From positions 23,002,001-23,066,000 of the forward strand of contig JBHGNT010000004.1 in NCBI GenBank assembly GCA_043228905.1: 64,000 nt of DNA, in the 5' to 3' direction. A model generated the notes under the pieces. That model was not told the DNA's origin and did no database searches. It saw only the letters and a list, made by a program, of their open reading frames with translations. Shown one piece after another: positions 1 to 34,900 of this stretch. Source of the stretch: Azolla caroliniana (taxonomy: Eukaryota; Plantae; Polypodiophyta). The stretch's first letter is position 1, and every line of letters begins with the position of its first letter. The translations under genes were made by a program, and so were the position numbers.

Positions 1-34
1 GAAGCTGTCGGGCCTCTATGAGAGGAAGAATGCG

Positions 35-3817: not shown

Positions 3818-3827
3818 AGGGGGAGTT

Positions 3828-5632: not shown

Positions 5633-5644
5633 TGGTATCAGAGC
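5633..5644 (+). promoter_or_regulatory. Primer binding site (initiator tRNA-Met)
   Basis: TGGTATCAGAGC directly after LTR. Confidence 0.93.
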
Positions 5645-5704
5645 GCGAGGGTTGAGAACCTCTCTGCAGCCGACAGAGCTTGACGAAGAAGAACGAGAAG
5701 AACG

Positions 5705-13200: not shown

Positions 13201-13875
13201 CACCATCGGCTCCACTATCTTTGGATCAATGCATCCGATCTCCCTCGATGTGAACGCGAATGCTTTGCCGTGTTGCTCCAACATCTCTCGAAACCGTTTT
13301 TCTTCTTCTTGTAAGAGGAACCCACCTCCACCGATCCGAAGTTTCTTCCGGGTCTCATCTGTGAAGGCATGTCCGATATCCACGGACTTCCGAAGTGTCG
13401 GATCTCCCGAGACTTCTTTCTTCTTTTGTTCGCTATCGGCGGGTAGTGGTCCCGCGGCCGGTTTCACCTTCTTCTCCACGGTCTTGTATTTCGTACTTAC
13501 CATTGCTTCTTCTTTGCGGAGCGCATCCGGCCCCATTTTCGCAACGATCTCGTACATCTCGACCGATTCCACCGGGACTACCCGGTTCCCTTGGCTTTTA
13601 TCTTCCGCAAGCTCTTCAAGCCGTTGTAGTGTATTCCCATAGAACACTTCCTCGATCACTCCCACGATTTCTTCGTCTTCTTTTATTATTGATGCCGACC
13701 GTAACTTATCCTCCACTTGTCGGTATTGTTTCTTCATTCCTCCGGTTACGGCCGTGTACGTAGATGCCCCATCCGGGCCGATTCGTACTTGTTTTGCTCC
13801 GAGACTTTTCTTCCTGTGTGGGGTATCAGGGCTTCTCGGACTATCACTTCCCCACTCCGCAACAGTCCGCTTTAA
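10270..13875 (-). CDS. Gypsy-1 pol (RT, RNaseH, integrase), uninterrupted; probably entered by -1 frameshift at ~13875
   Basis: 1155-aa ORF from 13737 with FLDD RT motif, H-H-C-C zinc finger, DDE core, WFGPY; frame stays open upstream to 13875. Confidence 0.93.
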   Translation of the reverse strand, partial: LKRTVAEWGSDSPRSPDTPHRKKSLGAKQVRIGPDGASTYTAVTGGMKKQYRQVEDKLRSASIIKEDEEIVGVIEEVFYGNTLQRLEELAEDKSQGNRVVPVESVEMYEIVAKMGPDALRKEEAMVSTKYKTVEKKVKPAAGPLPADSEQKKKEVSGDPTLRKSVDIGHAFTDETRKKLRIGGGGFLLQEEEKRFREMLEQHGKAFAFTSREIGCIDPKIVEPMVIFTIDHVPWNLKPIPVPRAHIPKVIDLLKEKVAMGILEPSSAPYSNRWFTVPKKNGSLRFIQDLQPVNKVTIRNSGVGPIVDEFAEAFAGRAIYSIGDLYSGYDQFQLAVESRDITTMRTPIGLVRMCTLPQGATNSVAHMMNAMNKVLRDCIPEITMPFLDDIPMKGCAVEEKDETMDDRGCRKFVVDHIHDCEKVLRKLEDVHLTLSGEKSAFGQEEILVVGHLCGPYGRRPSPTKIDAIQAMKEVCESTSEVRRFLGACAFYHIWIPHYAHIADPLYHLLRKGKKFEWKPEHTKAMRKLKKTLWRAESLKKPSYERPIIVTVDTSPTGIGWVINQADSDGSRYPIRFGAKVLNERQRGYAQVKRELWGVVSAIKSDRDYLIGAEVVIETDCLPILGMMRCCTIPDVAMLRWIAYVKSLNPEVRHISGKDNAVADMLSRARFEDDITESDNEEVFEDYFTSEHICRVNVIREFREEEYEGETLMIGKMLQEVEDSTNDKERRAEIRRKKRQVQKFFLENGLIWRTPKRPDGIPLRVVGTKEQRNRIMSEFHESDWAGHRGTWATFVKIKQRYWWKNMYKDVAEFTESCEKCQVYSGVRHRDELHPTFSPTINFKWMVDIVAMPTGIGQKKYLVLAREDLTNQVEGRALRRKTCAAVCQFLLEEVFCRYGCVGQVIADRGELDSDKARGFFAKHGVRLTLTTAYNPEANGKIERGHSPIVKALAKACDGRVKDWPQMLPYALWADRTTHSSVTGYMPAELMTGQAPVMPTETAIATWTILPWKEEMSREELLAVRIRQLEGRPKDVAEASRRQQEARFRNKSRFDTKHRLRPRRIEEGDWVIVYDSSLDHQHTTMRKFAKRWFGPYEVRKVFDNGTYRLSELDGTILRVPIAGKQVKIFKKRTDDKPYVIQVEADNEEQSDEDHNDAGSEESGLQLIVDIRGESEEASDEDGYEESRTSAHTGGCAGLEGASVVV

Positions 13876-15998
13876 AAATCCATTCTCACTTGGGGCAAGA
13901 GTTCCCTCTTGTTCCTTTCGTGATTTGCCGGCACCGTTAGGAATTGGACGGATTTCCCTCCGTTTTGGCTCCGAATTCGCGCAAAAGCCGCACCACTATC
14001 GAACACCTTCGTCTCCATCCGTGAAGCCGTGATAAAGGGTTGGCCGAGGATGACAGAATGTGAAACCTCATCCTGCACAAAGAAATTTTGGTCAATTTCG
14101 ACATCCCCGATCTTTACCGTCACATCCGGACAAGCCGCAAATAGGTCTTCTGTCGTTTTCGTGGCTGCCCGAATCTTCCATCCATGGTTGGTGTTTATAG
14201 GCCACTTCCCCTTTTGGTAGAACTCCTTGGACATCAAGTTGATCTCCGATCCGTGATCAATCAATGCTAGCACGGGTTCTTTGATGTTGCCGATTCGGAC
14301 CGGAGTCTCCGTAGTCGCACGGGCCCAGTGTGGCCTTGTATAGTGGGAGTTCGGAATTTCGCCTTCCACTTCGGTGTCGTTCGTTGAAACGGTATTTGCA
14401 TTCACCCTTGGAGCATTTTCCTCCGTACTTTGTCTCTTCCTTTTCACGAGATCCACGAGAAGATCGTGAAACTCCTTCTTCGCTATTCCGAGTAGTTCCC
14501 GCAACGAAAAATCTACCCGGCTATCCAAGATTCTTTCCTCGAACACTCTTTTCAAGTCGGTTTGTTGTTCTATGTCCGAGGCGAGCTTGAATGCCGGAGT
14601 CGCCTTTTCTTTTCCCTTACCTCCGGAGTTCCAGCTTTCCGGTATCTTCGATGGTCCGGCCGCATCCTCCGTGCGCCGTCGTTTCTCCTCCACATACACC
14701 TCATGTAATTGACACAGGGCGTATATGCTATTCTTGTCGACAGGGCACTCTCATCCCGTAGCTTCCCGGACGCCTTCCGCGGTGTTTCGGATATCGTTGG
14801 AGTCGGTTTTCTCGGTGTTTCCTAGCACCTCCGGCCAGAAAGACGCCTTCGCTCCCGATGACTCCCCGACACATATTCCCGCGGTTGTCGCATAGTTGCT
14901 TCTTGCCGCTAACTCCTCCTCGAGCACCATCTTCATGCCGCCTTTCCGGAAGTTCGGTCGGAGTGGCTTCCGAGAGTCCATCGAATGAATCCGGTTTCCC
15001 TCGTAGTAGATGAGATCCCGTCGTAGCGCCTCCTTATGGTCGTCGCAATCCCTCCGATCGTGTTCGGCGCTATCGCACCATATGCACCGTCGATCCGTAT
15101 ATTTGGAGCTTGTGGGGCGGTCATCCGACTTCTTCACCATCGCGATCTTTAGATTCTCCATCTCCTTCAGCAGCTGCTCCACCGTAGACGCGTCGACTCC
15201 CTTCTCGGCCGTAATCTCCCGAGCCCTCGGTTGATGGTCTTCCAGTCCCGTTCTCGGTTTTGGAATCGGTTCCGAAACCCTCTTTTCTTCGTTGGCAAGC
15301 CATTGCCCCCTCTTCATGTACCGCGCGATGATATCCCGCACGCTTTCCCATGTTTCAGTGAGGCCGCTTTCGGTGGTCGTGTCCTCAAGAAGCACTCCGA
15401 GATCTTTCCGGTCCCGGACGTCCACAGCTCGCAAAAACATGATGACTTTGTCCGGTGCAAGAATAGTTTGATCTCTCGCGGACAACCTCCCGAACCGACT
15501 TTCGAATGTCGAAAACACTTCGAGGACCTTCAGCCCCTTACCTGACGTTTCCACCCAATCCTCGAATCCCCTCCGCGTTGCCTTGGAGGAATCCTCGATG
15601 GCAAACGTGGTCTTTAACGCCTCTTCGAATGCTTCCCACGTCGGATTTTGTTGTTGCAACCCGTGGATACTCCCTTGAAGCCCGTCGGTCGCCACCCGGT
15701 TAAAGGATGTCACTTGCAGTCCTTCCGAAGCCCGGCACCGGAGCATCTCCGCCTTGTAGTCCTGCAAATATCGCGACACATCCTTACCATTAAATTGCCC
15801 GTTGCGTTGCACGAGCCGCTCTACTGATGCCGAAATCTCCGACATCGTGCGTTGTTCTTGAAGCATCCGTTCGAACATCGCCATCATATTGTTAGCTTGT
15901 TGAGCCTCCATCTCCTTGCCACCCGTTTTCACGTCGGGTTCACCAACTGTGTCGTGCCTTTCGGCTCCGGATCGTTGCGTGAGTCGGGTGGGAACCAC
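13872..15998 (-). pseudogene. Gypsy-1 gag-protease ORF with one in-frame TGA (14751-14753)
   Basis: ORFs 14751..15998 and 13872..14699 are in frame; knuckle CIWCDSAEHDRRDC; protease ALIDHGSEINLM; paralog near 45860 has Trp at the stop position. Confidence 0.9.
15929..15945 (-). promoter_or_regulatory. PBS complementary to the 3' end of tRNA-Trp
   Basis: TGGTGAACCCGACGTGA, reverse complement of TCACGTCGGGTTCACCA (recalled plant cytosolic tRNA-Trp 3' end), 4 nt from LTR. Confidence 0.85.
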
Positions 15999-16779
15999 AG
16001 AGGTCTTGGACTAGGAGAAAGAAGTTCGTGAGATAAAGATTAATTATGAATAAATAGCGAAGAGAAAGATAAGAAACTCGTGAATCACACGAGTATACTA
16101 TATTAATTGGTACTTAGGGTGTTAAGAGAGAAGTAGATGTATAAATCGTGAATCCCACGAATAATTTTTGTATTGATTAATACTTAATCCAAATAATCAA
16201 CAACCCTTTACATATTTCTCTCCTCCTTATATAAGGAAAGAAGAGCTAAGCATGGCTTCATGCTTTTTTTTTTACAAAAAGTGTTCATGTCCACTAAATG
16301 TGCATGTGATGCTTTTTTATTTCCTAAGTATAGGGCTCATGCACGCTAGATGTGCATGAGTTATTTTTAGTGTCTCGTGTTTTTCTTTTTCATATATTAA
16401 AAAATACACAATTTACCTTTTAATAAAGGTATGCATAAATAAAGGTCTTATACGTATTAAATCTATATTTAAAACACTTAAGATAAGTTAATGTAATGGT
16501 AAGGTTGGGGTTTGTCAACGTGGAGGTGCAGAGTTCGAATCACGCCTTGCGCAGTAGTGAGTATTTACTTTCCTTTTACATTTATGTCTCTTTATCCGGC
16601 TCTTCCTTGCCGGTATGCCGTTTTCCTCCTTGCCGGTATGCCGTTTTTCCTCCTTGCCGGTATGCCGTTTTCCTCCTTGCCGGTATGCCGTTTTCTTCCG
16701 GTTCTCACCGAGCACTCCATTCTCTATCCGGAGGGACAAAAATATAATTTCCACATAGTGTGCAACCTACACTACGACA
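15950..16779 (-). repeat. 5' LTR of Gypsy-1
   Basis: 830-bp repeat of 9454-10282. Confidence 0.96.
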
Positions 16780-17506
16780 ACGTATACTTCGGTATGTCAA
16801 CGACACTAAGGACCGGGGACTGCTATATCGGACCGGTGCAGCCGCGCAGTTAGTCGGCTACACCGATGCTGATTGGGCTGGCAACGCCGCCAATCGCCGA
16901 TCCACGTCCGGATACGCGTTCTCCGTCGGGAGTGTCGCGATCGTGTGGAGTAGTAAGAAGCAGCCGACAGTTGCACTGTCGAGCACCGAAGCTGAGTACC
17001 GAGGAGCGGCTGTCGCGACATGCGAAGCCATATGGTTGAAGCGGCTACTTAAGGACCTGCAAGAGGAGGTGTCAGATCCGACGACGATCTACTACGACAA
17101 CCCCAGCAACATCCAGCTCGCGAAAAACCCCGTTTTCCACGCACGGACCAAGCACATTGAGGTGCACTACCATTTCGTTCGTGAGCGTGTCCTTTCCGGT
17201 GAAGTGGAACTTCAGTACGTTCGGACAGATCGGCAGACTGCCGACATCTTCACTAAGCCCCTTGGTCTAGACAAGTTGCGGCAATTCTCCGGTGTGCTCG
17301 GATTGCGTCACCTCGACGTGCCAAACTTGAGGGGAAGAACAGTCCCAAACGACCAAGCAAAGCAGCATGAAAGGAGTGGAGGCCGCGACACCGAGTCGTT
17401 TGACTCGGCTGTTGACTCGGTTGTCGAGTTCGACTTCGGATCGGCTGAAGAAGCTGAGGACGGACCCGCGAAAAAGTCCGGAAGCGGACAGAAGGGGAGC
17501 AGCTGA
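16780..17506 (+). pseudogene. Copia-2 RT end and RNaseH with C-terminal extension
   Basis: [40 protein letters not shown]. Confidence 0.93.
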
Positions 17507-17877
17507 AGGAGAGAGCCGAAGCCAACACGCATGGGGGAGATGACGCCATCGAGGGCGAGAAGACCGAAGACGAGTTGGAGACAGCCAACTCGGACGAGAG
17601 CGAAAACCGATCGGAGGTAGCCGAGTCGGTTCGGATGTTTGATTCAGACACGTTGAATCAACCGAGGCCCAAGCGGAAGAAAAGGCAGCAGAAGAAGTGT
17701 CGACACCGCAACAACAGAAGAGTTGATAAGGGCCACATAAGAAGACAAGCCGACCGGAAGGGTCGAAGTGCGCGGAGTCGAACAGGTCGAGGAGCGCGAG
17801 GGAGACGTGAAGCCAGGAGGAACCGGAGCTGTGAGCCCGAGGATCCCGAAGAGCCTCGAGTTGAGCTTGAGGGGGAG

Positions 17878-18271
17878 TGTTGAGAGACAAGCTCAACATC
17901 GGCCAGATCGGCTGAAGAAGCCGAGGACCGGATGGGACCGATTGGTTAGGCCGAGTGCGTAAACCGGGAGGCCGTTAGGAAAGATATTCCGTGAGGAATA
18001 TATTTGGGAGTTAGTGTAGGAGCTCTTAATGAGCATTGAAGTACTGTCAGTACTTCTGTCGGTCCTTCTAGGACTTGTATAAAAGTGTTCATGGAACACA
18101 CATATGTATAGAGTGTGGTGAATAGAGATTTTAATATAGTTCTTGTGTTTTCTCTCTCTCACTCTCTCTGTCTCTCCCGTGTATACTGCGTAAGCTCACG
18201 CTCTCCATTAAACCTGAGTGTTCTTCCTTTTGTTCTGTCTTCATACTTGCTTCCGCACGCTACTTTCTACA
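17878..18271 (+). repeat. 3' LTR of Copia-2
   Basis: Repeat of 5234-5632 following PPT. Confidence 0.95.
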
Positions 18272-19165: not shown

Positions 19166-19542
19166 CTTAAACAAGAAGTTGTATATAGGTGAAAAAATTG
19201 AATACATCCAATAGTGACTAAGTTACAAAAGGTGGGTTTAAATACGGTCAACTAGTGTAGGGAAACTGCCCTTTCTACTGTTTACAAAACTAACCTAGTA
19301 TGTCCTCTAGCTAGTGTGCAACCATTTCATTCTCAACATGCCCCTTCGAACACAACTTCTTGGTGCCGAAAAGTTGGTTCGGTTTGATCATCGATTTAGT
19401 TGAATCGGCTTTCGGAAGGTCAGTCGACACAACTTGATTATCATCGTATTTTGATTCCTCTAGTTTTGATCGACTAATCAGTGGTTGTTCGGCATCGACG
19501 ACTACTACTGTTTTTCGGTGCTCCCCCTCAAGCGCAACGGGT
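19131..19542 (-). repeat. Copia-3 3' LTR segment (19131-19338) plus PPT and 3' UTR; 19249-19542 duplicates 32335-32632
   Basis: Aligns with 5' LTR 37234-37464 and with 32335-32632 (about 6 substitutions and a 4-bp indel). Confidence 0.9.
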
Positions 19543-20411
19543 ATTGTTTGTCAACAGAGTCACCATATTCGATTGAAGAATATTGTCTGTCGACCGACTC
19601 ACCATATTCTATCGAAGAATATTGTCTGAGCTCATCTACAGGGAATGTAAATAATGACACATGTGAAGAGTTCTCTATTGAAGAATACGATATTAATAAA
19701 GATACCGAGAATGAAGGAAGTGCCCAGGAAACATTGAATAACATTGGCGATGGTCACAACAGAGAATTAGACTGTAACAAGGTTACACCAACCTCTATGC
19801 AGGAAGAGAAATCTGGGAGCCCTATGCATATTAGAAGAATCCCACGAAGAATTCGTCTGGCTAGATTTAGCTTGGTGACATCAAATAAACAGATTGGATT
19901 TGATGTCAACAAAATATGTTGTGCCCGTGGTTGTATGTCTATGATTGGAAAATCAAAGTTGCGAGAATTAAGGCGATACTATTTTTCGATGACCGGTGAT
20001 GAGCAAGACACTTACCTCGGGTCACATATGCAACTAGTATCTGACAAATGTACGGGGATCAAAGTATCATTCGAGTATTATATCTTCCATGCGCAACAGA
20101 TATGTAGAGTTGCATTCAAAATTGCGTTATGTGTTAGTAACATGCGGCTACATAGAGTACAACAACGTCTACTTAGTGGGGATCAGATGCTCAATTGTAA
20201 AGAGGTTCCAAGTATGAAAGGTGCAATTGGAAGACTAGCTATTGGCTGGATGAAAACTTACTTTCAGTTAAATTGTGAAGTAATGCCCACTACAGGTAGG
20301 ATGCATCTTTCTGATAATTATACACGTCGGGAAGTTTATGATGTCTATCGATCTGATATGCTGGGCTCACGTAATAAGTCTATCACCTATAGCCAATTCA
20401 CAAGATTATGG
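19542..20411 (+). pseudogene. Sola1-like transposase, N-terminal part
   Basis: YCLSTxSPYSIEE repeats, CCARGC, QICRVAF, CEVMP, ends YSQFTRLW at the TSD. Confidence 0.85.
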
Positions 20412-20437
20412 GGGTCGAAGCACGCTACGGTGTACCA
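20412..20437 (+). repeat. Left TIR
   Basis: Reverse complement of 30105-30130. Confidence 0.95.
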
Positions 20438-20956
20438 GAAAAGTACTGTTTTTGGCCACAAAAATTGTCAGTACTTTCAATACTGTTAGTACTGAATAAT
20501 TCAGAAAAAAAATTAGAGAAAAAGAAAATCGATTTTGGAGAGTGGGGTGACTGTAGTACAAGTGTCATTTACTGTAGAAGGAGTGGGGGGAACACGTGAG
20601 GAGATGTTCTTCCATTTTGGGGGCTATTTTCCCCTCACGTCGATTTTGGCGCTTCCCCTCACGTCGTTTTGGCGATTCCCCTCATACTGTTCTTCCTCTA
20701 TCCCTCTGAGCTTTTCATCACAGACATCCATGTCACGTTTCTGATTTTCCTTCAATCTAAATCTCAGACATCCATGTCTGGTTGGAGAGTTTGAGTTGAG
20801 GATTTCTGATTTTTTTAGGGTTTCTGTTTTTGTTAGGTTTCGGTTGAGGTACAAAGACTGTTCTGAGGGTTTAGGTAGCAGCCAATAGTCACTTCTTCGA
20901 CAACGACTTTCGTACTTCCACCGATTGCAGTTGATGTCGTGGTGATTTGGGGCTTT

Positions 20957-21150
20957 TTCCACCAAATCGAGGCGGCATTGGAGGTTCCTTCCACCAAATC
21001 GAGGCGGCATATCCAACGCTCCCTCCACCATTGGAGGTTCCTTCCACCAAATCGAGGCTGCATATCCACGCTCCCTCCACCATTGGAGGTTCCTTCCACC
21101 AAATCGAGGCGGCATATCCAACGCTCCCTCCACCATTGGAGGTTCCTTCC
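20957..21150. repeat. Tandem array of 52-53-bp units (about 3.5 copies)
   Basis: TTCCACCAAATCGAGGCGGCATATCCAACGCTCCCTCCACCATTGGAGGTTCC. Confidence 0.9.
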
Positions 21151-21752
21151 ATCCATTTTTTTTTTTTCAATACTAAAATGTTTCATTTCTTCATATTTCA
21201 GTACTAAATTTTTAGAATTGACATTTGCCATATTTGATATGTAATTCTAATGTTTGAAACAAAATATTTCTCACTTTGCAGGCCACATTTAAAAACATTT
21301 GATTGTGTTTTCTTGGTTGAGTCTATATATCCACGCTCCCTCCACCATTGGAGGTTCCTTCCATCCATTTTTTTATTTTCAGTACTAAAATGTTTCATTT
21401 CTTCATATTTCAGTACTAAATTTTTAGAATTGACATTTGCCATATTTGATATGTAATTCTAATGTTTGAAACAAAATATTTCTCACTTTACAGGCCACAT
21501 TTAAAAACATTTGATTGTGTTTTCTTGGTTGAGTCTATATATCCACGCTCCCTCCACCATTGGAGGTTCCTTCCATCCATTTTTTTTATTTTCAGTACTA
21601 AAATGTTTCATTTCTTCATATTTCAGTACTAAATTTTTAGAATTGACATTTGTCATATTTGATATGTAATTCTAATGTTTGAAACAAAATATTTCTCACT
21701 TTGCAAGCCACATTTAAAAACATTTGATTGTGTTTTCTTGGTTGAGTCTATA
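21114..21752. repeat. Tandem array of three 212-213-bp units
   Basis: GTAATTCTAATGTTTGAAAC recurs at 21241, 21453, 21666. Confidence 0.92.
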
Positions 21753-21808
21753 TAACATTAACTACTTTCGCAAGACACTTAATTTTTGTGGATAAATCTA
21801 GTGACCGA

Positions 21809-23456
21809 ATGGGGGTTCCTAACGAGAGTGAGTTGTCAAGTAACTCATGCATATCTGAAAGGACTAAGAGACGAGTGGTTCTTCACATAGTCCGTTATTT
21901 GGTAGAAATAACGAAGAGATTTAGTGAAGAGGATTGTAGGGATATTATCTGTAGAGTGTTACACCATCAAAGTTTGAATGAAGACATGGAGAGAATAAAA
22001 TTTAGGGACCAATGTGTTTCAGAAGAGATTGTGGAGTCTATGAAGTCATCCCTAGACTTAGTGAAAGGTGTAGAGAGCTTAGACAAACTTGTTGCAAAGA
22101 GGGCAGCCCTACACATGGTTGTGAACGGTGCGAGAGAAAAAAAATATAGTGATACTAAAGTTGCCTTAGCCCTGGGTATTCAAAGAAGGAACTTGAGGAA
22201 ACATCGCCGAAATATACACTCAAGCAAATTCAAGTGGCTGGGGTCGGGACGTAGATGACGATGTGATGCCTTATCTCAAGAGATTATTGAGAAAGTGGAT
22301 TCATTTTGGGCCAAAAATACGCGTGTCTCACCAAATAAGAAGGACGTGTGTAGACAACGAATAAGTCAGGGTAAGTACCAGATTCACCCTAGACACTTCT
22401 TGGAGATGACAGAGGTATTCCATTTTTTTATATCAATTCACATTCCATAACTTTGTGTTTTGACCAAGTGTATATTAATGTTTGCTATATATATTGGTTG
22501 ATGTAGGCTGAATTGTACATGAACTTTAAAGACCAACATCCAAGCTTGACTATCGGATTCCGCAAGTTCCAAGGTTTGAAACCATTTTATGTTAGAAAAT
22601 TAAATGAGAGGAATACATGTTGTTGTGTGTACCATGTGAAGATGAACATGTTAAGGCTAGCAGTGAATGCAATGCGTACTGATTCTAAGGGTATACATGG
22701 GGAATTATGTGTCTGCACTTGTGAGATTTGTAGACCAAATGGGGAGGATAGTAGGTGTAATGCACGAAACATGACTTATGCATCCGTTTCTGAGCTATGG
22801 AGGTCTTGTGTTTGTGAAAAAGAACCATCATGTGAGTGGCATCGTCGTACATGTCTATTAAGAACATGTAAGGTTTGTCCGCTACCATTATTTTGTAGGC
22901 AGGAGCTTGATATGGGAAATAGTCATATCGTGAAATGGAAATATTTGGAGTATGTGACTGAAAATATTGGCAAGGGAGTTGTAACTAAGCGTATCAAGGA
23001 AGTATATAAGGAGACATGTGATGCTACCCTTGTCTCAGAATTTAAGAAACAACTTGGGGAGTTTATTCCACATAACTTCAGGAGTTATTGGCAAAATTCA
23101 CAGTTCAAGGAATGTATTAATAACTTACCAACGGGTGTCATTGTATCCGTTATTGATTTTGCAGAAAACTATACATTTAAAGTTCAAAATGAGGTTCAAT
23201 CAATGCATTGGTACAATGATCAATGTACAATACTTGTACATATTTGCTATTGGAGGCAAGACGGTGAGTTACATAAGAAATCAATATTTTACATTTCAGA
23301 TGATAAAAAGCATGATACACTATTTGTTCAACATTGTTTTAAGCTTCACCATGCAGATTTATTTTCTCTAGGGTTAACCTTTAACCGTCATTGGGTTTGG
23401 TCGGATGGTGCTGCCTCGCAGTTTAAGGCGGCACGATCGTTCTACTTTATCGCCAG
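21809..23456 (+). pseudogene. Sola2-type transposase, intron-containing (exons ~21809-22414, 22507-23456), one nonsense codon, 3' exon not found
   Basis: SPNKKD, ELYxxFKxxHP..IG..KF..LKP, CCCVYH, VIDFAENY..QNEVQSMHW, FYISDDKKHD, WSDGAASQFK; GT-AG intron 22415-22506; TGA 22256-22258; donor at 23457 with no HGK..DG exon seen downstream. Confidence 0.85.
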
Positions 23457-24088
23457 GTAATTTTTAATCCATATGTTTAGTACTTATCATGCAATGTGTA
23501 AGGAAGTAAATCTTGTGTTAGTGGATGCATACTAATTATGTTTGTAACTATTAACAAACAGTACTAGTCACATCGATGCATACTAATTATGTTTCTAACT
23601 ATTCGAATCTTGCACTTGTGAATGGATGCATGCATACTAATTTTGTTTGTATTATGTTGTACTAAGTAACTTTTAATCCATGTGAAGTGTTCTTCAATAA
23701 CACCCGATACCCGATATTTTCTGTTTCTCATCATCAACACCTAAAAACCTAAATTTTCCTAGCAAGCTAAGAAGACTTTTTCAAGCATTTTATCTACAAT
23801 AGATTGAAAGACTTTGCGAGGATTAGGAGATGATCTCAAAAAAGAAACAAAACGTTGTAAAATAAGAATACTTAGATCAAAAAGTATATTCCCATTGTTT
23901 TTTATATATGTTGATGAGCAAAATATAGAAGCAATCCTTAAACATGAACTTGATTTCACACTTGTATAACTATTTCAGATTCATGAACTGGATTTTTTAC
24001 ATTGGCAATTGAAATAGTATTTTGGTATCCAAATAGTTCAATTTCAGACATCACTAACAACTAAAGTTCAAGTACAATCGAAAGACAA

Positions 24089-27000
24089 TCAGGCACTAGA
24101 GGGTAACTTGGCCGATCTTGTAATGCGCTTGTTGTTGGTGCCAGATTTTTCTGATTTTACATTCTTCTTTATCTTAAAGCCTTTAGGTATGAGCTGACTA
24201 AGTGGCACTTCATCATCAGAGGCATCAGAGACAGGCGTGGATGCGCAGGCACCTTGTACTGGTGGCAAGCTTGAGAGAGCAACTATGTTTTCTGCAACTG
24301 CAATGCTTGTACACAAATCCACAAAGGTGCTGTCGATAGACAAATTATCACTCATCTTCTGAATGCTTGTACTCCTAGCGATCTTTATTGCCCTATCATC
24401 ATCACCGATGCCTATACACTCGTTCTTATTAGACTCCTGTATGTGGACCGTGGCAGTAGTCATGGTCAACTCCTCTTGTACAATGGATGTCACCTCATTC
24501 TTAAGACAACGTTGTTCGCTCTGAGTACAATCAGGCCCACCTTCATTAGTAACGTTGTTCGCTCTACACTCCTCATGGGATTCTGTACAATCAGGCTTAT
24601 CTTCAGGGAAAGCGATGTTCTTTCCGCGATCCTCATGGGCTTCACAAGACACTACTAGCACATTCTCAGTACAATCAAGCTCCTCTTCATTACTAGCAAT
24701 GTTCTTTCCATGATCCTCATGGGAATCTTTAGATAGTACTAGCACGTTATCAGTACAATCAGTCTTCTCTTTAGCACTTGCCACATTATCAGTACAATCA
24801 ATCTTCTCTTCAGTACTTGCCATATTCTTTCCACACTCTTCATGGGCTTCAATCTTCTCTTCAGTACTTGCCATATTCTTTCCACACTCATAGGCTTCTT
24901 TAAACATAATGTTGTTTGTACATGCCAATTGCTCTTCACATATGAATGCTTCGTTTTTCTCACAATCCTCATGTGTGGAAGATGTGCTTCCAGAGTCTGC
25001 CTCCTTGCAAAGGTTAATTTGATTCTGACTCTGATGGGAATCTGATTCTGCACTTGTGCTCCATGAAGTTCCCGATTCATTTGATTGCAGTTGGGAATCA
25101 GACTGCTCTTGTAAACCTAATTAATGGGATTCCAAAGAATATTGGTATGAACTCACATACTCAAAAGTTTGCAAACAATGAACATAGGGTTTAGGGCCAC
25201 ATTTTTACCTAATGTTACATCGTCATACTGTACAACCGTAGATACCCCATTGCAAGTGGTGGGCTCGGTCATCTTCTCCACAACATCTAGGTGCTCAACA
25301 GTGTTGTTATGATCTATAATAACAACAAAAATAGGGTTGTTATGAGCTAAATCATTGTTTTCAAAGTCTGGCTTTTGACGTGTACCTGGGAGTGTGATAA
25401 ATTCGTCTTCATGATCAGGTTTTGGACTCGTATCTCCGTCACCAAATATCATTTCATCATCAGCTAGTAACACAAGTACATGGTATTAGACAATGGATTA
25501 GGTTGACAATGCTCCAGACAGGTGAGAACTTATATGACTCACCATTGCATTCAACTTTTCCTTTCTTGCCGTTTCCATACAACATTCTTGCAACATTTCT
25601 CTTCTTACTGGGCTCTATTTGTAAAGAAACTGCATTTCTCTTCTTAGTGGGCTCTATTTCTTGATGTTGACCGGAGCTTGGGGAATTTGTTTGTAGAAGC
25701 ATATGTTCCACTGCTCCAATGGCCCTTCTCATACATTCATCCTCATCATAAAAATCATAGGTTATTGGTAATGATGGTCCCTGAACCTTGGAATGTGCAG
25801 CAGATATTGAGGGTTTAGGCACAGGGGTTGGTTGTTCCATTACCTTCCCTGGCATGGAGTTGCTTGACACTACAACATTCATTGCAAGAAACAAAAAAAC
25901 CTTGAATGTTAGTACCATCATCTAAAATATATAATGTAGGTCACAAGAGCTGCTTCCCATTTTACACAATGTACCAATCATGAACAATGTACTACTCACA
26001 TAGTTCCTAAATTACTGAACTAGTACTAATAAGGAACACTGTACTGCTCACTTAGTTCCCAATTTACACGATTAGTACTAATCATGCACAATATACACAA
26101 GTAGTACTAATCATGCACAATATACTACTCACTTAGTTACCAAATTACACAAGTACTAATCCCGAAAAATGTACCACTGACTTAGTCAAATTAATAAGTA
26201 GTACTAATCTTGAACAATGTACTACTCACTTATTTCCTAAATCACTGAACTAGTACTAATCCCGAACAATGTACTGCTCACTTAGTTCCCAATTTACACA
26301 AGTAGTACTAATCATGCACAATATACTACTCACTTAGTTACCAAATTACACAAGGAGTACTAATCCCGAACAACGTAATGCTCACTTAGTTCCCAATTTA
26401 CACAAGTAGTACTAATCATGCACAATATACTACTCACTTAGTTACCAAATTACACAAGGAGTACTAATCCCGAACAATGTAATGCTCACTTAGTTCCCAA
26501 TTTACACAAGTAGTACTAATCATGCACAATATACTACTCACTTAGTTAGCAAATTACACAAGGAGTACTAATCCCGAACAATGTACCACTGACTTAGTCA
26601 AATTACACAATTAGTACTAATCCTGAACAATGTACTACTCAACAATGTACCACTGACTTAGTCAAATTACACAATTAGTACTAATCCTACAAAATGTACT
26701 ACTCACTTATTTTCTAGATTATTGATCTAGTACTAATAAGGTACAAAACTAGTACTAATAAGGAACAAAGTACTACTCAGTTCCCAAATTACAAAACTAG
26801 TATTAATCATGAGTAATGTACTGGTAACTTAGTTCACAAAGTACAGAACTAGTACTAATCATGAACCATGTAGTACTTACTAAGTACTAATCCAACAAAT
26901 GTAGATTGGTATTTTGCACACAAGTAATACTAAACATGATATGTCTTCTACACACCTAGTTACATAACTTGTACTAATTACACCAACAGTATTAATCTTG

Positions 27001-28747
27001 AACAGTATTAGTACTAACCGTGATATGTGTTTGACACACCTCATTTCCAAATTACAATAATTGTACTATTATTCAACAATTTACTATACACCTTGTTCCC
27101 AAATTACATTACTAGTACTAATTCCCAAGTTACACAAACAATCTTAACAGTCAACAGTGTACTATAAGTATAGTGTTTACTAAACTAATACTAGGCAAGT
27201 TGCAATATAGATTGGACGATGTTGTACCTGGTTCCCTTTTAGTACTACTAATTGTGGAAAATATCCCTTCAACTACACATACCAATTATATATTAAGAGT
27301 ACTGCCAATACTAACCCACATAATTAGGGTTCCACATAATAGTTGTTAGAGATTACACTAAATTTGAAGTATGAATTGTGGCATACACTAGTTCTAGTCC
27401 AAATGTTAATTGACATCATATAATACAAACAATAGAATAGTAGAGCCACATACCGTACGGGTGTACTTTTAAACCCCAAGCATAGTACCACTCAGCAGCA
27501 ATTGTAGTTTTACAGTCCATACATGTATTCTCTTTCTCAAAATGATACTTAGCACATAGCACATGATATGTGTGCAAGCATGGTGTAATCACAACATCCA
27601 TAGCCTCCAGCTTGAATCCGAGGCCACAAAATATACACCTGGAAGATTGCAAACACAAGTTATAATATATTAGTTGCTCACTTATTTATACCAGAGAAGT
27701 AGAAATAAATAACTTTTAAAGCCAATACCGTGATATAGCTATACTAATAATGGTACTTTCTATACCACTTGGGTGCTCAATTACAGATGGACACAAAGTA
27801 TCAAAACCATTTTGTTTTAAATCCTGCATCAAGCATGCAAGGTTCTCAGAATGCAACTTTAAGGCTGACAACTTATTATCTATTTCTTCATGTGCATTCC
27901 TGCAAGTATCAAGGTCTCTCATCTGTGAACCTAATTGAGTGCCCATATTGTTTAGCTCTTTCTTCAACTCCTCTTTCAACACCTCACTTTCTGAATTTTG
28001 GATTGTCGATGCAATCCATTCATATGTAGTTTTTATTGAAGAAAATTTCTTTTCTGCCTGTATCTCAGCTGATTTAACTGCTTCCAAATCAGCAAGTAGT
28101 GTTTGTATTCTTGAGCTCATAGAAGCTATGCAACCGGCCATCATCTGTTCATGCTTTTCAGTCATTGTGGCCCGTACCTTTGCCTCTAGAACTTGGTGGA
28201 TAGGTGTTATAGCTAGAATATCCACATGAGAGGTTCCAGATGACTTCAAGCCAGTGTTGGTACTGGAGGACCCTTTGTAATGTTCTGACCGGTGCCGATT
28301 AAAATCTTCCCAATTTACGTCAATGCCACCTTGAACTTCACATGCAAAAGCACGTGCAAAAACAGTACCCACCTCATTGTTAGTGATTTGATTTGTATCA
28401 TAAACATGTTCGTATCTCGTCTTCAATAAATTCATGTATTCCCTCTTCAAACCACTTATGTGGAATCCTCGCCTTGTGTCGGGATGTGCTGACCCCCAGG
28501 TTTTTAACAACCACTCTCTCAGCTCTGGATACACGTCAGGTCGTCCTCGAAGGAAATAATTCCATCCAAGAGGTGTGTCTCGACTGATGGAGTGGTACAT
28601 CTTCTTTCTCTGTGTTGATGAATTCATCACCCTTTCTCTTGTGGGTGTCTTCTTGCTTTCTTTCATGGGTGTCCTTCTTCCTTCCTTCACTGGTGTCTTC
28701 ACTTTCTCTTTCATCAATGTCTTCTTTATGGGTGTCCTTCTCGTCAT
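24089..28747 (-). CDS. Spliced accessory gene inside the Sola2-type element: TPxK repeats, coiled coil, RING-H2 finger, acidic repetitive tail (937 aa predicted)
   Basis: Exons 28747-27729, 27638-27454, 25869-25543, 25463-25209, 25116-24089; all GT-AG and phase compatible, 2814 nt without internal stop; CIFC-x15-CLHTYHVLC-x10-CMDC. Confidence 0.75.
25970..26900. repeat. AGTACT-rich minisatellite, 52-bp subunits in a 104-bp higher-order unit, in intron 2 of the accessory gene
   Basis: ACTAATCATGCACAATATACTACTCAC at 26307, 26411, 26515; degenerate at both flanks. Confidence 0.9.
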
Positions 28748-28814
28748 TGTCCTAGTCAACACAATTCTCAGGGAATGAATATGCATGTACTAGAAGAAAA
28801 CTCAAGCAATTACC

Positions 28815-29170
28815 ATCAACACATAGCAAATCATCACATTGCATGTACAAACCATGTCAAACACACAATAACCCTAAATAGTCGGAAAAAAACTCATCCA
28901 TGTCAAACACACAGACAATAAAAACAGACGGATAGGAAAGTCAAAGAAAACGAAAACATTGTAAATCATCATAGCCAACTCCATCACATCGCATGTACAA
29001 GCCATGTCAAACACACAAAAACCCAAAATAGTCGGAAAAACACTCATCCATGTCAAACTCACACAAAATAAAACAGATGGACAGGAAACAAGAACAAAAC
29101 GAAAACATAGCAACTCATCATAGCCAACTCCATTTACGTTGCATGTACAAACATGTCTAACACACAACCA
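28815..29170. repeat. ~150-bp tandem repeat (2-3 copies)
   Basis: CATCACAT.GCATGTACAA.CCATGTCAAA near 28832, 28982 and 29130. Confidence 0.8.
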
Positions 29171-30104
29171 CCTCGATCAAAATATTTTCATACATTTTTA
29201 AAAGAAACATAGAGAAACACAGAGAAAACAAAAACATACCAGTTGGGCATGCAACACATAGACTATGAATAATCAAACCCTAAAAATGACCATACACATG
29301 CAAATAAAAAACAGACAGACGGGAAACATTCAGAAAAAGAAAACATACCAGTTGGGCATGCAACACAGAGAATACCTGGAGGTCGTACAACTTGCAGAGG
29401 TACCACACCGTGTTGATTTCGACAAACGAGGCTGCTGTAGAGGAGACAAACGAGCATAGACCGAGGAAACAAACGAGCATACACAAGGAAGGAAAATCAA
29501 CAACACATACAACAAGCAGGGGAAACAAAAATCTCTGCGTTCAGAGATCGAACCTGGCATAGAGGGGAACACAAGAACAGCTACGCGGGGAAACAGAGAA
29601 TCGAAGGTGGAGTGAGAGAGAGAAACAGAAAGAAAGAAAGAAACAGAGCTTTGAAGGTGGAGTGAGAGAGAGAAAGAGAGAGATAGACCTGTAATAGATA
29701 TGTCGTCTTTCTTTAACTTTCTGCCACTGTCTGTCTGACAACTTCGAGACAGAAGAGAGAGAGAGAGAGAGAGAGAGTGAGTGAGTGAGTGAGAGAGAGA
29801 GACATACCAATTGACACGTTCGACTACCCATACCAGAGAGAGAGAGAGAGAGAGAGATACTGAGACTGACCAACTGTCACAATGGATACCTTCTCCAGGT
29901 GTGCTTTCGTACAACTCTACCTAGGAGACTGGGGCAACAATTAATGTATTAAATATGGCCTAGGGACATTTCGAGTGTGATGTACAATATCTTTGTGCAT
30001 TCGAGTGTGACGTAATGAGTTTGTTTTTTGTTTTTTGAAACTTATTTACAATTTTTAATGTTTATTTTCTTCTTCGATTTAGTACTAAATTTTTGGCCAA
30101 AAGT

Positions 30105-30130
30105 TGGTACACCGTAGCATGCTTCGACCC
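30105..30130 (-). repeat. Right TIR
   Basis: TGGTACACCGTAGCATGCTTCGACCC followed by TSD ATGG. Confidence 0.95.
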
Positions 30131-30134
30131 ATGG

Positions 30135-31973
30135 AGAGTTCGGTTTTCAAATGTTATTATTCCTCGTAAAGTACGTATGGGGTATTGCTCCATTTGTGCA
30201 AATCTTAAAAGTTTGGCTAAAGGTGCAAAGACATCAATGGAAAAGGATACGAGTAAGAAGTTACTACAAGAGCATCGTGAGGCACAATCCTTAGAACGAA
30301 GGAAGGCGATGCATCATAGAGAGAAGTGTTTGAAGAGGCCCGAACAATACATGTGCTTAATGATAGATGGCATGGACCAGAAGAAGACATGCTTGCCGCA
30401 TATGCGGAGGCTCCCCAAAGATGTCAATGATGAGTGCCTTGTTCAAATGCACTTGGTGGGATGCTTGGCTTATAATAGGTCTGTTCGACCTCACGTCTTC
30501 ATTACTTACCCCAATGTTCACAATGAACCTAACCTAACAGTTACAGTGATTCACCGAGTTTTGATGTCTTGGGGACAACCTTTCCCCCCTGTTCTATACA
30601 TTCAATTGGACAATACTGCTAGAGAGAACAAAAATTCAACTGTATTTGGCTATCTAAGTATGTTGGTCAACCTAGAATTGTTTAGGAAAGTGAAAGTCAA
30701 TTTCCTTTTGGTTGGCCACACACATGACCATATAGATCAGATGTTTAGCACATTCTCCAGACAGTTGTCTCGGCATGATGCTTTCACTTTACCTAAACTA
30801 TTTGATGTCATTTGTGATGCTTATACACCACGCCCAAAAGTGTTACACTTGAAGGAGGTATATGACTTTAAGAGATATATATTAGATGGGGGTGGTGGGA
30901 ATGTTAAAGTGCTTGCTCAGTTAAACAATATAAGTTTCAATCACATTTTTTTGATAAAGAAAAATGGAATAAGTGGTTCTACACTTTTGTATGCTAAACA
31001 ATATTCATCTTCTACAACATGGGAACCTGAAGGTGGTTGCTAGTTATTACTTTGTATGCCAAGTACAATTGTCCATGGAGCTAAGCAAATGCCAATTGAG
31101 AAGAAAGGACAGTTGCAGAGCGACTTGGTATCAGAACAAAAACGGTCATGGGTCCAAGCCTTAGAAGAAAAAAGAAAGCATATTGAGGCTGCCAAGAAAT
31201 ATGCCGCACAACAAGACACGTCATGGTGGGATGTATTTTATAGTGATCAGAAAGAAATTATAGACAATTGTGTATCTGTTGATAATTGGAATTTGGAAAC
31301 GCCATTCACATGGTCGCTGCAACATGATCGCGTAAATAGAAGTCCGGAGCAACTAGTAAATGCGATTAATGACAGCTTGGTCCATCCACAACAAAGAGAC
31401 ATTTATGTGGGACCAAGGATGATGAAAGCAGCCGAAGCTAGATGGCAAGGAAATTTGCAAGAGCTCACCGCAGGGATGTTGATTGCAACGCCGGCTGATG
31501 AGAACTCACATGGCCACCAATTTTGGGTTGGTAAAATTCTAGAAGTGCTAATGCATGAAATAGAAAACACGATCAAGTCTATAAATGTTCATTGGTACAA
31601 CACTAGAAGTGCAAATGCTTTTACAGGTAAGTATACATTGGAGATGATTGAATGCCAAACAAGAAGGGGAGGTAGGAAGAGGAAGTGAAACATTCGTAAC
31701 ACCTCGACCCTTGATATCGCTGATGTGGATATCATCGTGTACGACTTCACACTTACAAAAGCCGGACGATTAAGGAAGTCAACAATAGATATAATAAAAG
31801 AAAAATTACCAGGTCTACAAGGTGGCTCGAGTCAAAGGCAAACGAGATCTGCTACATATAATCTAGAGTTAAACCATTTGGTTTATGACGAAGATAATGC
31901 ACTGATTGGTACATCTGAGGATGATGAGGAGGAATCGTCATTGTATATTAGTTATAGTAGTGATTCTCCGTAA
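30135..31973 (+). pseudogene. Sola1-like/DUF7869-type transposase catalytic and C-terminal part, two nonsense codons
   Basis: CSIC, MIDGMDQKKTCLP, YIQLDNTARENKN, FLLVGHTHDHIDQMFS; ORFs 30093, 31056, 31725 in one frame separated by TAG 31041 and TGA 31686. Confidence 0.88.
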
Positions 31974-34900
31974 AGGAGTGATCATGAATGTATATTTGGC
32001 TATTAAGTGTAACTACATTCCGCTTGTAACAAATCGAGTAATATAAAATCATGTGTTTTGAATTCTTATGATTTCTAAAAAATCGTTTCTTATAAAATAA
32101 CATTGGTTGTAAAGTTTGTGATATAAATTGAGAATGTATGTTTTTGAAATTCGTCTTTTTTTAGTTACTTCTAAATCACGAAAATAGTGGATTTTTAACC
32201 TTTTTCATAGTATGTTTGAACTTGTATGATACTGGTATCAATGTGTTTTGTAAAATCATTGAAAAACCCCTAAAATTTCCCTTATCCTTCCATTTATGCG
32301 CGATCCTTCCACTTGTGAACGCGAACGTGTTTACCAACTAGTGTAGGGAAACTGCACTTTCTACTGTTTACAAAACTAACCTAGTATGTCCTCTAGCTAG
32401 TGTGCAACCATTTCATTCTCAACACGCCCCTTCGAACACAACTTCTTGGTGCCGAAAAGTTGGTTCGGTTTGATCATCAATTCAGTTGAATCGGCTTTCG
32501 GAAGGTCAGTCGACACAACTTGATTATCATTGTATTTTGATTCCTCTGGTTAGTTTTGATCGACTAATCAGTGGTTGTTCGGCATCGACAACTACTACTG
32601 TTTTTCGGTGCTCCCCCTCAAGCGCAACGGGTCGATGATGGAGAGACCAAGGTTCATCACGAACTGTCGCAGCTTGTCGATACCCAAGACTTTTGTGAAG
32701 ATGTCGGCCACGTGAAGATTTGTGTTGATGTGTTGTAAATTAACATCTCCAGCTCGAATGAAGTGATAGTGCACTTCGATATGCTTAGTCTGCGTGTGGA
32801 ACACACGGTTCCGAGCCAAGTAGATATTCTCAGGGATAGTACTAGAGGCAAGGAGAATTAGTATCATGATAGATATTGCTCATGTTCTCGTAGTATAGGA
32901 GAATCAGATCCTTGATGGGAACACCCAGATCCTTCGATATGCGCTTCAGCCAAAAGGCCTTGCATGCGGCGACTGTCGCGCCCCTGTATTCGGTCCTTGT
33001 GCTCAACAGTGCGATTGTCGGCTGCTTTTTTTTGCTCCAAGATATCGCTCCGATGTCGAGGGAGAAGACAAATCCGGATGTCGATCATCTATTGGCCTTA
33101 TAGCCAACCCAATACGCATCTGTGTACCCTTCAGGTCGAATTATCGTATCCGGCTTGTACATGATGCCGAAATCCATCGTCCCACGGACATACCTAAGTA
33201 CTCTCTTAGCACAATCGAGATGAACATTTTGAGGGTTCTACATGAACTGGCTAAGTAGACCGATCGAATAGCTGAGATCGGGTTGTGTGTTGGTTAGATA
33301 GATTAAGCAACCGATCAATTGACGATACTAAGTCGGCTCACAATTTTCCGTTCCCGAATCGGCATTGACCTTGAGATTTCGATCAAGAGGGGTACACACA
33401 GGTTTGCACTCAGTCATCTCAAACTTGTAGAGTAAGTTGAGAATGCAGTGCCATTGAGAGATCAATATCCCAACTGATGTCCGAATTACTTCGATACCGA
33501 GGAAGTAATGGACCTTGAAGTACTAAAAATTACAAGTAAAAGTTATCTGCCCCTAGGCTTACATCATAATGTCTTTCATTTCATTTCATTCATGTCTTTC
33601 ATTTCGAATCTACCGGATAAGAGTGATTTGACCATAGTAATGTCGGCAAGATCCTTTCCTCGGATGACGAGATCTTCCATGTACAGGATGATGACAATCG
33701 GGTTGGTTGACTCGTTTTTTATGTATAGGGAGTTGTTTGATTTCAACATTCAGAAGATGCCAAGTACATGGTTCTTGCTTGAGTCCATATAGGCTTCTTT
33801 AGTCGGCAAACTACTTTCAGTTGTTTGCTCAATTCGAACTCGGGTGGTTGAATCATGAAGACCTCCTCTTCTAATTCACCTTGTAGGAAGGCGTTCTTTA
33901 TGTCCATCTAGTGGAGGTGCCACCATTTTGCAGCTACGAGAGCAATGACTGCCCGAATAGTCGTCATTTTTGCTATCTGGGAAAAGGTCTCGTTGTAATC
34001 GACTCTGTGCGTTTGGGCATATCCCTTCGCTACGAGTCAGGCCTTGAAGCAATTTAACGAGCTGTCAACATTATATTTTACTTTATATATCCACGTACAA
34101 CCGATCGCTTTCTTATGTGGAGAATGGGGGATGAGATCCCATGTCTTGTTTTTGCATAAAGCCTCCATTTCTTCATTCATGGCTTCAATCCATCGTGGAT
34201 CCTTGGATGCCTCAGAAAAGGTTTCTGGTTCTCAGACTGTCGCCACCTTCATCATAAAGGCATAATGATATGCCATATACTCATCTTAGCTGAATCGACT
34301 AACTCGGTTTTTCTCTCAAGTGGAGCGACGGAGCTTCTCGTTTGCAGAGACTAGGGCTTTCTTTGCTCCATTCATCCGGATGATTGGGATGTCAAGGCCT
34401 TCGAACTCATTGTCACAGGAGTGAGTTGACTTGTTGTTGATCCGATCTTCGTATTCTGGCATTTTGGCCTTCCTTTTGTTGACCTTCAGACTCGGCCAAG
34501 ATGTGCTTTGATCACTCGAGGGCTCTTGTGGTCCACTCAGCCTTTTTGTAATCAGACTTTCTTCGAACATGTGCCTCAGTCAATCTTCATCTTCTATCTT
34601 TCATTTGGCGGAATCCGGATCGACTAGGCTCGGACTCGAAATCATCTCCGGTTCGTACCAGGATGCTAACTCATCGAATATGATGTCTCGACTCACCCAA
34701 ACTTCGTGGGTGGTTGGATTGTAACATTTGTGCCCCTTTTGTTCGGGTGAGTACCCTACGAGGATACATTTCTCCGAGTTCAGGTCGAGCTTTTGTCTCT
34801 TCTCGTTGGGAATATGCACATAGGCGATTGAGCCTAATATCCGGATATGTGATAGATCCGGCCTCTTTCCGAAAAACTTCTCATGAGGGGTTACGTCGTG

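What the first reader, a model, noticed from the sequence alone, without database searches (positions are those of the whole stretch)
20408..30134. Complete 9.7-kb Sola2-type TIR element in a plant-type genome
Seen: 26-bp TIRs with one mismatch (imperfect extension via TTTTGGCCA...AGTACT), GGG/CCC ends, 4-bp TSD ATGG, and an intron-containing transposase with DFAENY/QSxHW/SDDxxHD/SDGAASQFK motifs. Established (recalled): Sola elements make 4-bp TSDs, and Sola2 has GRG termini and was described mainly from animals and protists. Inference: an under-reported plant Sola2 lineage, either ancient or horizontally acquired. This copy is non-autonomous (TGA at 22256; exon with the third catalytic Asp not found).
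Basis: partly seen in the sequence, partly recalled or inferred. Interest (0 to 1): 0.72.

Follow-up and report, generated by a model that had tools for sequence, protein, structure and literature searches.

The report
Two-gene plant Sola2 transposon, crippled copy
This is a broken copy of a recently multiplied plant jumping-gene family of a type already catalogued in mosses and conifers (Sola2), but beside its cutting enzyme it carries an intact second gene, also found next to related enzymes from other sources, that encodes a RING zinc-finger protein which likely helps the element stay active.

Summary
Confirmed: 26-bp TIRs (20412-20437, 30105-30130), ATGG duplication, spliced Sola2 transposase with TGA at 22256. 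The missing third exon was lost in a ~2.9-kb deletion at ~23692. The element sits inside a Sola1-type transposase gene whose other copies show the empty site (11 of 11). The family is young: 10 of 10 copies of one subfamily have perfect 4-bp TSDs and both genes open. Plant Sola2 is not new: it is catalogued in Ceratodon (26-bp TIR, 4-bp TSD) and counted in two conifers, and the protein groups with streptophyte homologues, so recent transfer from animals is unsupported. Related reading frames face the transposase in 6 of 11 distinct metagenome Sola2 loci, homologues occur in Adiantum, and related copies are transcribed and spliced. The transposase ends in a predicted BAH-like domain. Neither feature was found in print, but this scan noted the two-gene layout before on other DNA (e1-10618503, e1-9882303). 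The accessory gene's function is inferred only. New variant of a known kind; interest 0.5.

The parts
20408..20411 (.). Left 4-bp target-site duplication ATGG
   Evidence: single ATGG at the empty site in 11 of 11 other host copies
20412..20437 (+). Left TIR, 26 bp, GGG end
20438..21808 (.). Left arm: 8 AGTACT palindromes, 53-bp repeats (20976-21151) and 212-bp repeats (21114-21754)
21809..22414 (+). Transposase exon 1 (202 codons; start ATG inferred); premature TGA at 22256-22258, CGA in 10 of 10 other copies
22415..22506 (+). Transposase intron 1, GT-AG, 92 nt
   Evidence: joint seen in 3 reads of run X7, from related copies
22507..23456 (+). Transposase exon 2: Cys/His-rich region and the first two catalytic Asp (DFAENY, SDGAASQFK)
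23691..23693 (.). Junction of a ~2.9-kb deletion (3-nt microhomology) that removed most of intron 2, exon 3 (third Asp in HGKGEHDG, BAH-like C-terminal domain) and the transposase 3' end
23700..23974 (-). Remnant reading frame behind gene 2; 188 aa in one older copy, in pieces in all 10 young copies; likely 3' UTR or a decayed captured fragment
24089..25116 (-). Accessory gene exon 6: acidic repeats, conserved C-terminal motif, stop
   Evidence: model predicted from GT-AG sites and phase
25209..25313 (-). Accessory gene exon 5 (predicted)
25386..25463 (-). Accessory gene exon 4 (predicted)
25543..25869 (-). Accessory gene exon 3 (predicted)
25870..27453 (-). Accessory gene intron 2 with a 52/104-bp tandem array; holds 24 of the element's 38 AGTACT palindromes
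27454..27638 (-). Accessory gene exon 2: RING-H2 finger (C3H2C3)
   Evidence: PF13639 E 3.7e-5, below the curated cut-off; all eight ligands kept in 10 of 11 copies; loose read ends fit the splice to exon 1
27729..28747 (-). Accessory gene exon 1: basic N-terminus, ~100-aa helical domain (28253-28585), coiled coil
30105..30130 (-). Right TIR, 26 bp
30131..30134 (.). Right target-site duplication ATGG
19541..20411 (+). Host element, left piece: 5' part of a DUF7869 (Sola1-type) transposase frame; truncated on the left at 19541
30135..32331 (+). Host element, right piece: rest of the DUF7869 transposase frame and right terminus
   Evidence: PF25273 E 1.1e-51

Best explanation
This is a transposase-dead copy of a young, multi-copy Sola2 DNA transposon that carries a second, intact gene facing the transposase, and that gene's RING-finger protein likely acts as a ubiquitin ligase that helps the element escape host silencing. 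Shown: the ends, the 4-bp duplication, the insertion into a Sola1-type gene, the nonsense change and deletion, sister copies with both genes open, and the same two-gene layout in distant relatives. From established knowledge of DDE/D transposons: the transposase pairs the TIRs, cuts the element out and inserts it at a 4-nt staggered cut; this copy has intact ends, so an intact sister copy could move it in trans. Predicted: the transposase's C-terminal domain is BAH-like and would engage nucleosomes at the target or at the element's ends. Inferred and untested: the accessory protein dimerises through its coiled coil, is drawn to the element (possibly through the AGTACT arrays) by its helical domain, and ubiquitinates a host chromatin or silencing factor there. 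Odds by step: Sola2 identity 0.97; accessory gene is a selected part of the element 0.8; BAH-like tail 0.7; anti-silencing role 0.35.
For: Motif-by-motif match to the Repbase Sola2 alignment. TSDs perfect in 19 of 20 other copies; empty site in 11 of 11 host copies. Young subfamily: 10 of 10 copies with open 813-aa transposase and 922-aa accessory frames, 0-3 substitutions in 2442 nt (chosen from identical-scoring hits, so not a random sample). Six-exon model, all GT-AG with matching phases, 913 aa without a stop in the window. Adiantum nelumboides proteins share the helical domain, coiled coil, RING-H2 and C-terminal motifs. Facing minus-strand RING or helical-domain frames in 6 of 11 distinct metagenome Sola2 loci with at least 3.5 kb downstream; with profiles built without these loci, no hit at E<0.05 lay upstream. 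In L081 a family-type right TIR lies beyond the RING gene. PolyA reads run in the expected sense over both genes. pN/pS between subfamilies: 0.07 transposase exon 2, 0.14 helical domain. BAH-containing proteins fill the top 12 rows of one fold search (Z 5.4-6.6, rmsd 2.8-3.7, 78-95 aligned) and rank 1 of another. AGTACT is 3.9/kb inside against 0.39/kb outside, 35 of 38 in non-coding parts.
Against: No experiment bears on function. 5 of 11 distinct loci show no accessory hit, three of them with 9-10 kb held downstream. L088/L097 have the helical domain and coiled coil but no RING within 800 bp, and the RING frames of L082, L123 and L124 are incomplete. Only L081 shows the gene inside a TIR, and the Adiantum proteins could not be placed in elements. 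RING scores are below Pfam's cut-off. pN/pS counts are small (4 synonymous, 2 non-synonymous in the helical domain; 0.45 for the whole exon; no change in the RING exon). RNA reads are few, come from one study, and are mostly 85-95% alike, so they are not from this copy. BAH Z-scores are under 8, Foldseek E is 8e-3, and Pfam gives no BAH hit in 42 proteins. The AGTACT sites mostly sit in tandem arrays, so they are not independent, and they are not enriched in 14 related loci. The transposase could be their binder.
Confidence: 0.6

Rival explanations
1. The accessory protein is a direct transposase partner, like maize MURB with MURA: it helps assemble the transposition complex or sets transposase levels by ubiquitinating it, and has no anti-silencing role.
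For: Convergent two-gene layout kept across transposases only 35-43% identical. Direct transposase-accessory binding is reported for MuDR, PIF/Harbinger and CACTA (PMC12973397 passages). Relatives do not share one enriched motif.
Against: Several relatives appear to lack the gene, and the animal Sola2 alignment shows no need for a partner (one search shows transposases only; that animal Sola2 are one-gene elements is recalled).
Confidence: 0.25
2. The second gene is a captured host gene or passenger with no role in mobility; it is open here only because the family is young.
For: Sola2 elements swap their 3' cargo (Fanzor chimeras in dictyostelids, PMC3627910 passages). Much of the protein is low-complexity. 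pN/pS of 0.45-0.52 over exons 1 and 3 rests on few changes.
Against: The same domain order faces the transposase in 6 of 11 distant loci. No named host gene family was found among 35 hits. In this genome 150 scored hits form a repeat family, many lying 1.5-2.5 kb from a right TIR (compared by eye).
Confidence: 0.12
3. The element is a recent horizontal arrival from an animal or protist Sola2 (one of the first reader's options).
For: Most homologue rows are unnamed, and the family's place inside the plant-type group is unresolved (81-82 bootstrap).
Against: Identity is 34-50% to plant-type rows against 26-36% to the distant rows. The 14 plant-type rows, which include Klebsormidium, Calypogeia, Ceratodon and Cryptomeria, are split from four distant rows by a branch of 1.97 with 99/99 support. 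The TIR resembles the Ceratodon element. Transfer among plants is not excluded.
Confidence: 0.03

Closest known systems
Sola2 group of the Sola superfamily (Repbase Sola2 of Hydra, Aedes, Nasonia, sea urchin, Bombyx; alignment in PMC3627910 Additional file 10, part 1 of 2 read; Bao et al. 2009 not held, recalled)
   Same: DDD core with the same motif order (DFAENY...QxExQSxHW, ISDD, SDGxxxQFK, WxFFxxxHGKxxxDGxG), upstream CxxYH and Cys motifs, short TIRs, 4-bp TSD.
   Different: About 12 kb, spliced transposase with a predicted BAH-like tail, a second convergent RING-H2 gene, and TSDs without a strong AT preference (18 different 4-mers in 20), unlike the AT-rich TSDs of the dictyostelid elements.
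Ceratodon purpureus Sola2 cluster_4006 (PMC12973397 Table S2; rows seen, sequence cell cut)
   Same: 26-bp GGGT-ended TIR (16 of first 20 bases alike), 4-bp TSD, 10.9 kb, recent copies.
   Different: A table row only; the passages read do not describe gene content, and the word RING does not occur in the main text. Whether it carries the accessory gene could not be tested.
Sola2-Fanzor1 chimeras of Dictyostelium fasciculatum and Polysphondylium pallidum (PMC3627910, passages)
   Same: ~12-kb Sola2 elements with a second, spliced gene in the 3' half.
   Different: Their second gene is a TnpB-like nuclease; here it is an unrelated helical-domain/coiled-coil/RING-H2 protein.
Two-gene plant TIR elements: MuDR (MURA/MURB) and VANDAL (VANC) (PMC12973397 passages; VANC motif targeting recalled)
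   Same: An accessory gene beside the transposase; motif-rich non-coding arrays. A possible model for how it works.
   Different: Different superfamily (Mutator); no sequence or fold link was found; neither protein is known to me as a RING ligase (recalled).

Membership tests
Sola2 | DDD transposase with the Sola2 motif set and order | tested here: met
   Sister copy c35: D419, D502, D543, spacing 82 and 40; matches the published alignment block by block, read by eye. The window copy lacks the third Asp.
Sola2 | 4-bp target-site duplication | tested here: met
   Window plus 19 of 20 other copies perfect, one with a single mismatch; empty sites. Feature stated in PMC3627910.
Sola2 | Short TIRs with GRG termini (consensus recalled, not found in papers read) | tested here: met
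   GGG...CCC in all 21 copies examined.
Sola2 | Groups with reference Sola2 in a tree or by Repbase/Dfam profile | not testable with these tools
   No Repbase or Dfam here; trees hold database homologues only.
Sola1 (for the inserted element) | DUF7869-type core as in the host element (link of DUF7869 to Sola1 is recalled) | tested here: not met
   No PF25273 hit for the element's exons, while the host frame scores E 1e-51.
RING-H2 E3 ligase (accessory protein) | C3H2C3 zinc-ligand pattern | tested here: met
   C-x2-C-x15-C-x-H-x2-H-x2-C-x11-C-x2-C; PF13639 24.3 bits against a cut-off of 27.3.
RING-H2 E3 ligase (accessory protein) | E2 binding and ubiquitin transfer | not testable with these tools
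   Needs an assay.
BAH domain (transposase tail) | BAH fold | tested here: inconclusive
   Model pLDDT 88; top 12 rows are BAH-containing proteins but Z 5.4-6.6; Foldseek rank 1 polybromo BAH, E 8e-3, prob 0.99; no Pfam BAH hit.
VANC-like anti-silencing system | Accessory protein binds motif arrays of its own element and removes silencing | not testable with these tools
   Only motif enrichment was measured.

The most novel reading that the evidence does not exclude
Land-plant Sola2 elements form an old two-component system. A transposase with a BAH-like chromatin-reading tail works with an element-encoded RING-H2 ubiquitin ligase whose N-terminal domain has no known fold; the ligase finds the element's own motif arrays and tags host silencing proteins for removal. 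That would be a transposon anti-silencing device based on ubiquitination, still working in the young subfamily of this genome.
Probability: 0.25. Interest if true: 0.8.

Novelty: new variant of a known kind. Interest (0 to 1): 0.5.

Why it matters
Sola2 is a large part of some conifer and seed-free plant genomes yet appears only as table rows. If the accessory RING gene is a standard part of the plant branch, it adds a new kind of transposon helper protein beside MURB and VANC. The ten near-identical intact copies give ready material to test this and to test Sola2 transposition itself. The window copy is a natural case where the helper gene outlives the transposase.

Tried and rejected
Bao et al. 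2009 and Yuan and Wessler 2011 are not held; what I say of them is recalled. Complex prediction of accessory exon 1 with transposase exons 1-2 gave no answer (score 0.00, alignments not used); it is no evidence either way. The accessory helical domain folds well (pLDDT 87.5) but matched nothing: Foldseek PDB and viral E>0.9, best Z 3.0, no Pfam or PDB sequence hit, no usable Atlas hit (one search gave RING clusters under 0.9 only). This does not show a new fold. A search for longer homologues of accessory exon 1 found none (weak evidence). The one-clade test (p-AU 0.48) was ill-posed: it only asks whether the family branches first within the plant-type group, so I draw nothing from it. In the 53-row tree the same split is weaker because of long branches, and 4 rows without a full core were left out. 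No RNA holder was listed as such by the run search. A paired-TIR search in 18 long metagenome loci found no pair with a TSD. The frame behind gene 2 was considered as a seventh exon or phosphatase-like domain and rejected as unsupported: broken in 10 of 10 young copies, no Pfam hit. Literature searches for the accessory gene or BAH tail returned nothing relevant, judged from listings: Sola + transposon + RING finger + accessory protein, 0 papers; transposase + BAH domain + Sola, 0; Sola + Ceratodon + transposable elements, 0; DNA transposon + RING-H2/E3 + anti-silencing, 7 unrelated listings. Repbase Reports, subscription journals and bioRxiv supplements (10.1101/2021.09.26.461848, 10.64898/2026.07.23.736688) were not seen and may bear on novelty. 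Searches had off-by-one exon limits, corrected.
Full report
Observation. The element runs from 20412 to 30130, with 26-bp TIRs (one mismatch) and ATGG on both sides. The TIR pattern has 167 exact matches in the 523-Mb genome and none for the reversed control. Ten other paired copies are 11.3-14.6 kb; 9 of 10 have perfect 4-bp TSDs, each different, and one has a single mismatch. The window copy is shorter because about 2.9 kb was deleted at 23691-23693 with a 3-nt microhomology. This removed transposase exon 3, which 10 of 10 other copies keep. The TGA at 22256 is CGA in all ten.

Insertion site. The element interrupts a reading frame whose 3' part matches DUF7869 (E 1e-51). Eleven of 11 other copies of that host show a single ATGG at the site, which shows directly that the 4 bases were duplicated on insertion. 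The host family is ~9.1 kb with AACAC termini and a 4-bp TSD in 3 of 4 copies. I call it Sola1-type by inference; the DUF7869 link is recalled.

Transposase and membership. One older copy has an open 812-aa transposase with D419, D502 and D543. Its motifs follow the published Sola2 alignment in order (PMC3627910 Additional file 10, part 1 of 2). Named homologues come from Klebsormidium, Calypogeia, Ceratodon and Cryptomeria; most rows are unnamed. In an 18-row tree these and the family sit on one side of a 1.97-long branch (99/99) from a fly protein and three unnamed distant rows. The 53-row tree agrees but more weakly. An old streptophyte lineage is the simplest reading; transfer among plants is not excluded. 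The host organism was not identified; the closest named relatives of the second gene are from a fern.

Is plant Sola2 new? No. PMC12973397 Table S2 (four Sola rows seen) lists a Ceratodon element labelled Sola2 with a 26-bp TIR and 4-bp TSD, and a Rhytidiadelphus row labelled Sola1;Sola2. PMC11539532 gives DNA/Sola-2 as 56.7 Mb in Cryptomeria (passage). The Cupressus preprint calls Sola2 its most abundant class II group (passage). Sola without subtype is reported in Azolla and Ceratopteris (passages). Two reviews name Physcomitrella as the main plant host, one of them as Sola1 (passages). So it is catalogued but, as far as I found, not described.

Activity. Ten copies chosen from identical-scoring hits form a young subfamily. 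All ten have perfect TSDs, an open 813-aa transposase and an open 922-aa second gene, and they differ by 0-3 substitutions in the transposase CDS. Among the ten older copies only one has an open transposase and two an open second gene. The window copy has 14 private changes in 2942 bases. Its ends are intact, so it could be moved in trans (inference).

The second gene. Six exons on the minus strand (28747-27729, 27638-27454, 25869-25543, 25463-25386, 25313-25209, 25116-24089), all GT-AG with matching phases, give 913 aa without a stop. The order is a basic N-terminus, a ~100-aa helical domain, a coiled coil, a RING-H2 finger and an acidic repeat tail. A search of 1.84 billion proteins gave 35 hits. 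Of 10 looked up, five are Adiantum nelumboides proteins, which together share these parts. One unnamed 405-aa protein, 23-25% identical, has the helical domain, coiled coil and RING in one frame.

Linkage in other genomes. Of 239 metagenome stretches encoding a relative, 80 were returned. Seventeen hold at least 3.5 kb behind the transposase and reduce to 11 distinct elements. With profiles built without these loci, six show a minus-strand frame facing the transposase: RING in L081, L082, L123/126, L134-136 (E 1e-7 to 1e-13) and L124 (E 0.004), and the helical domain in L088/097 (E 0.004, 0.05). No hit at E<0.05 lay in the 182 kb upstream. Reversed-sequence controls in a second round reached E 0.006, so L124 is the weakest. 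Five elements gave no hit, three of them with 9-10 kb held. L120, with 1.5 kb held, has a RING-H2 on the same strand. In L081 a family-type right TIR lies beyond the gene. These transposases are 35-43% identical to ours.

Expression and selection. In three polyA libraries from one study, 92 reads laid on 21750-25900 and 96 on 27150-28830. Reads over the transposase ran one way and reads over the second gene the other, each as expected for sense. Intron 1 was spliced in 3 reads. Loose ends at the RING exon (17 and 6 reads) begin with the 8 bases that end exon 1. Most reads are 85-95% alike, so they come from related copies, not this one. pN/pS between young and older subfamilies is 0.07 and 0.15 for transposase exons 2 and 3, 0.65 for exon 1, 0.14 for the helical domain and 0.45 for accessory exon 1, on small counts.

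Structure. The helical domain folds with pLDDT 87.5 and matches nothing. The transposase C-terminal 182 aa, taken from an intact copy, fold with pLDDT 88. The top 12 structural matches are all BAH-containing proteins (EBS, ORC1, DNMT1, AIPP3 and others; Z 5.4-6.6), and Foldseek's first hit is the polybromo BAH domain. The scores are middling, so this is a prediction. The lead to fold this part came from an earlier scan note that proposed a Tudor fold.

Motif arrays. AGTACT occurs 38 times in the element (3.9/kb against 0.39/kb outside), 35 in non-coding parts, including both ends. Most lie in tandem arrays, and 14 related loci do not share the enrichment. The binder could be either protein. 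The idea that the accessory protein binds the motif comes from note e1-10618503 and is untested.

Verdict. A dead copy of an active plant Sola2 family: known group, known in plants. The conserved convergent RING-H2 accessory gene and the predicted BAH-like tail were not found in print, though this scan has noted the two-gene layout on other DNA. I favour a ubiquitin-based helper against host silencing (0.35), then a direct transposase partner (0.25), then a passenger (0.12).

Noticed in passing
window 19249-19542 and 32335-32632: A 298-bp direct repeat (96.6% alike, apparently a copia PPT/LTR piece) brackets the host Sola1-type element; the host is truncated on the left exactly where the left copy ends. 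Possibly a rearrangement at a transposon end.
   Followed up: partly
window 19541-32331; G000 L052-L070: The host Sola1-type family is young and abundant (668 first-look candidates, about 99% identity, ~9.1 kb, AACAC termini); 3 of 11 copies have no stop across 591 codons. Its full copies hold a palindromic repeat array and about 6 kb to the left of the transposase that I did not annotate.
   Followed up: partly
PMC12973397 Table S2, clusters 4008 and 4009: The TIR columns and representative sequences of the Rhytidiadelphus and Cibotium rows look swapped; a GGGT-ended 10.9-kb element stands in the fern row labelled Sola1.
   Followed up: no
L120:3658-4917 (+): A Sola2 relative with a RING-H2 protein directly behind the transposase on the same strand, unlike the facing layout.
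   Followed up: no
P0034 (1122 aa): A distant Sola2-like transposase with a C-terminal segment that looks OTU-like by eye (GDGNC motif; recalled); no Pfam hit.
   Followed up: no
window 1-18000 and 33000-64000: The rest of the window is mostly nested copia- and gypsy-type LTR retrotransposon frames, judged by eye from ORF translations.
   Followed up: no
G000 copies c45 and c43: c45 has an ~800-bp insertion in transposase exon 1 and c43 a ~2.4-kb insertion in the left arm; not identified.
   Followed up: no
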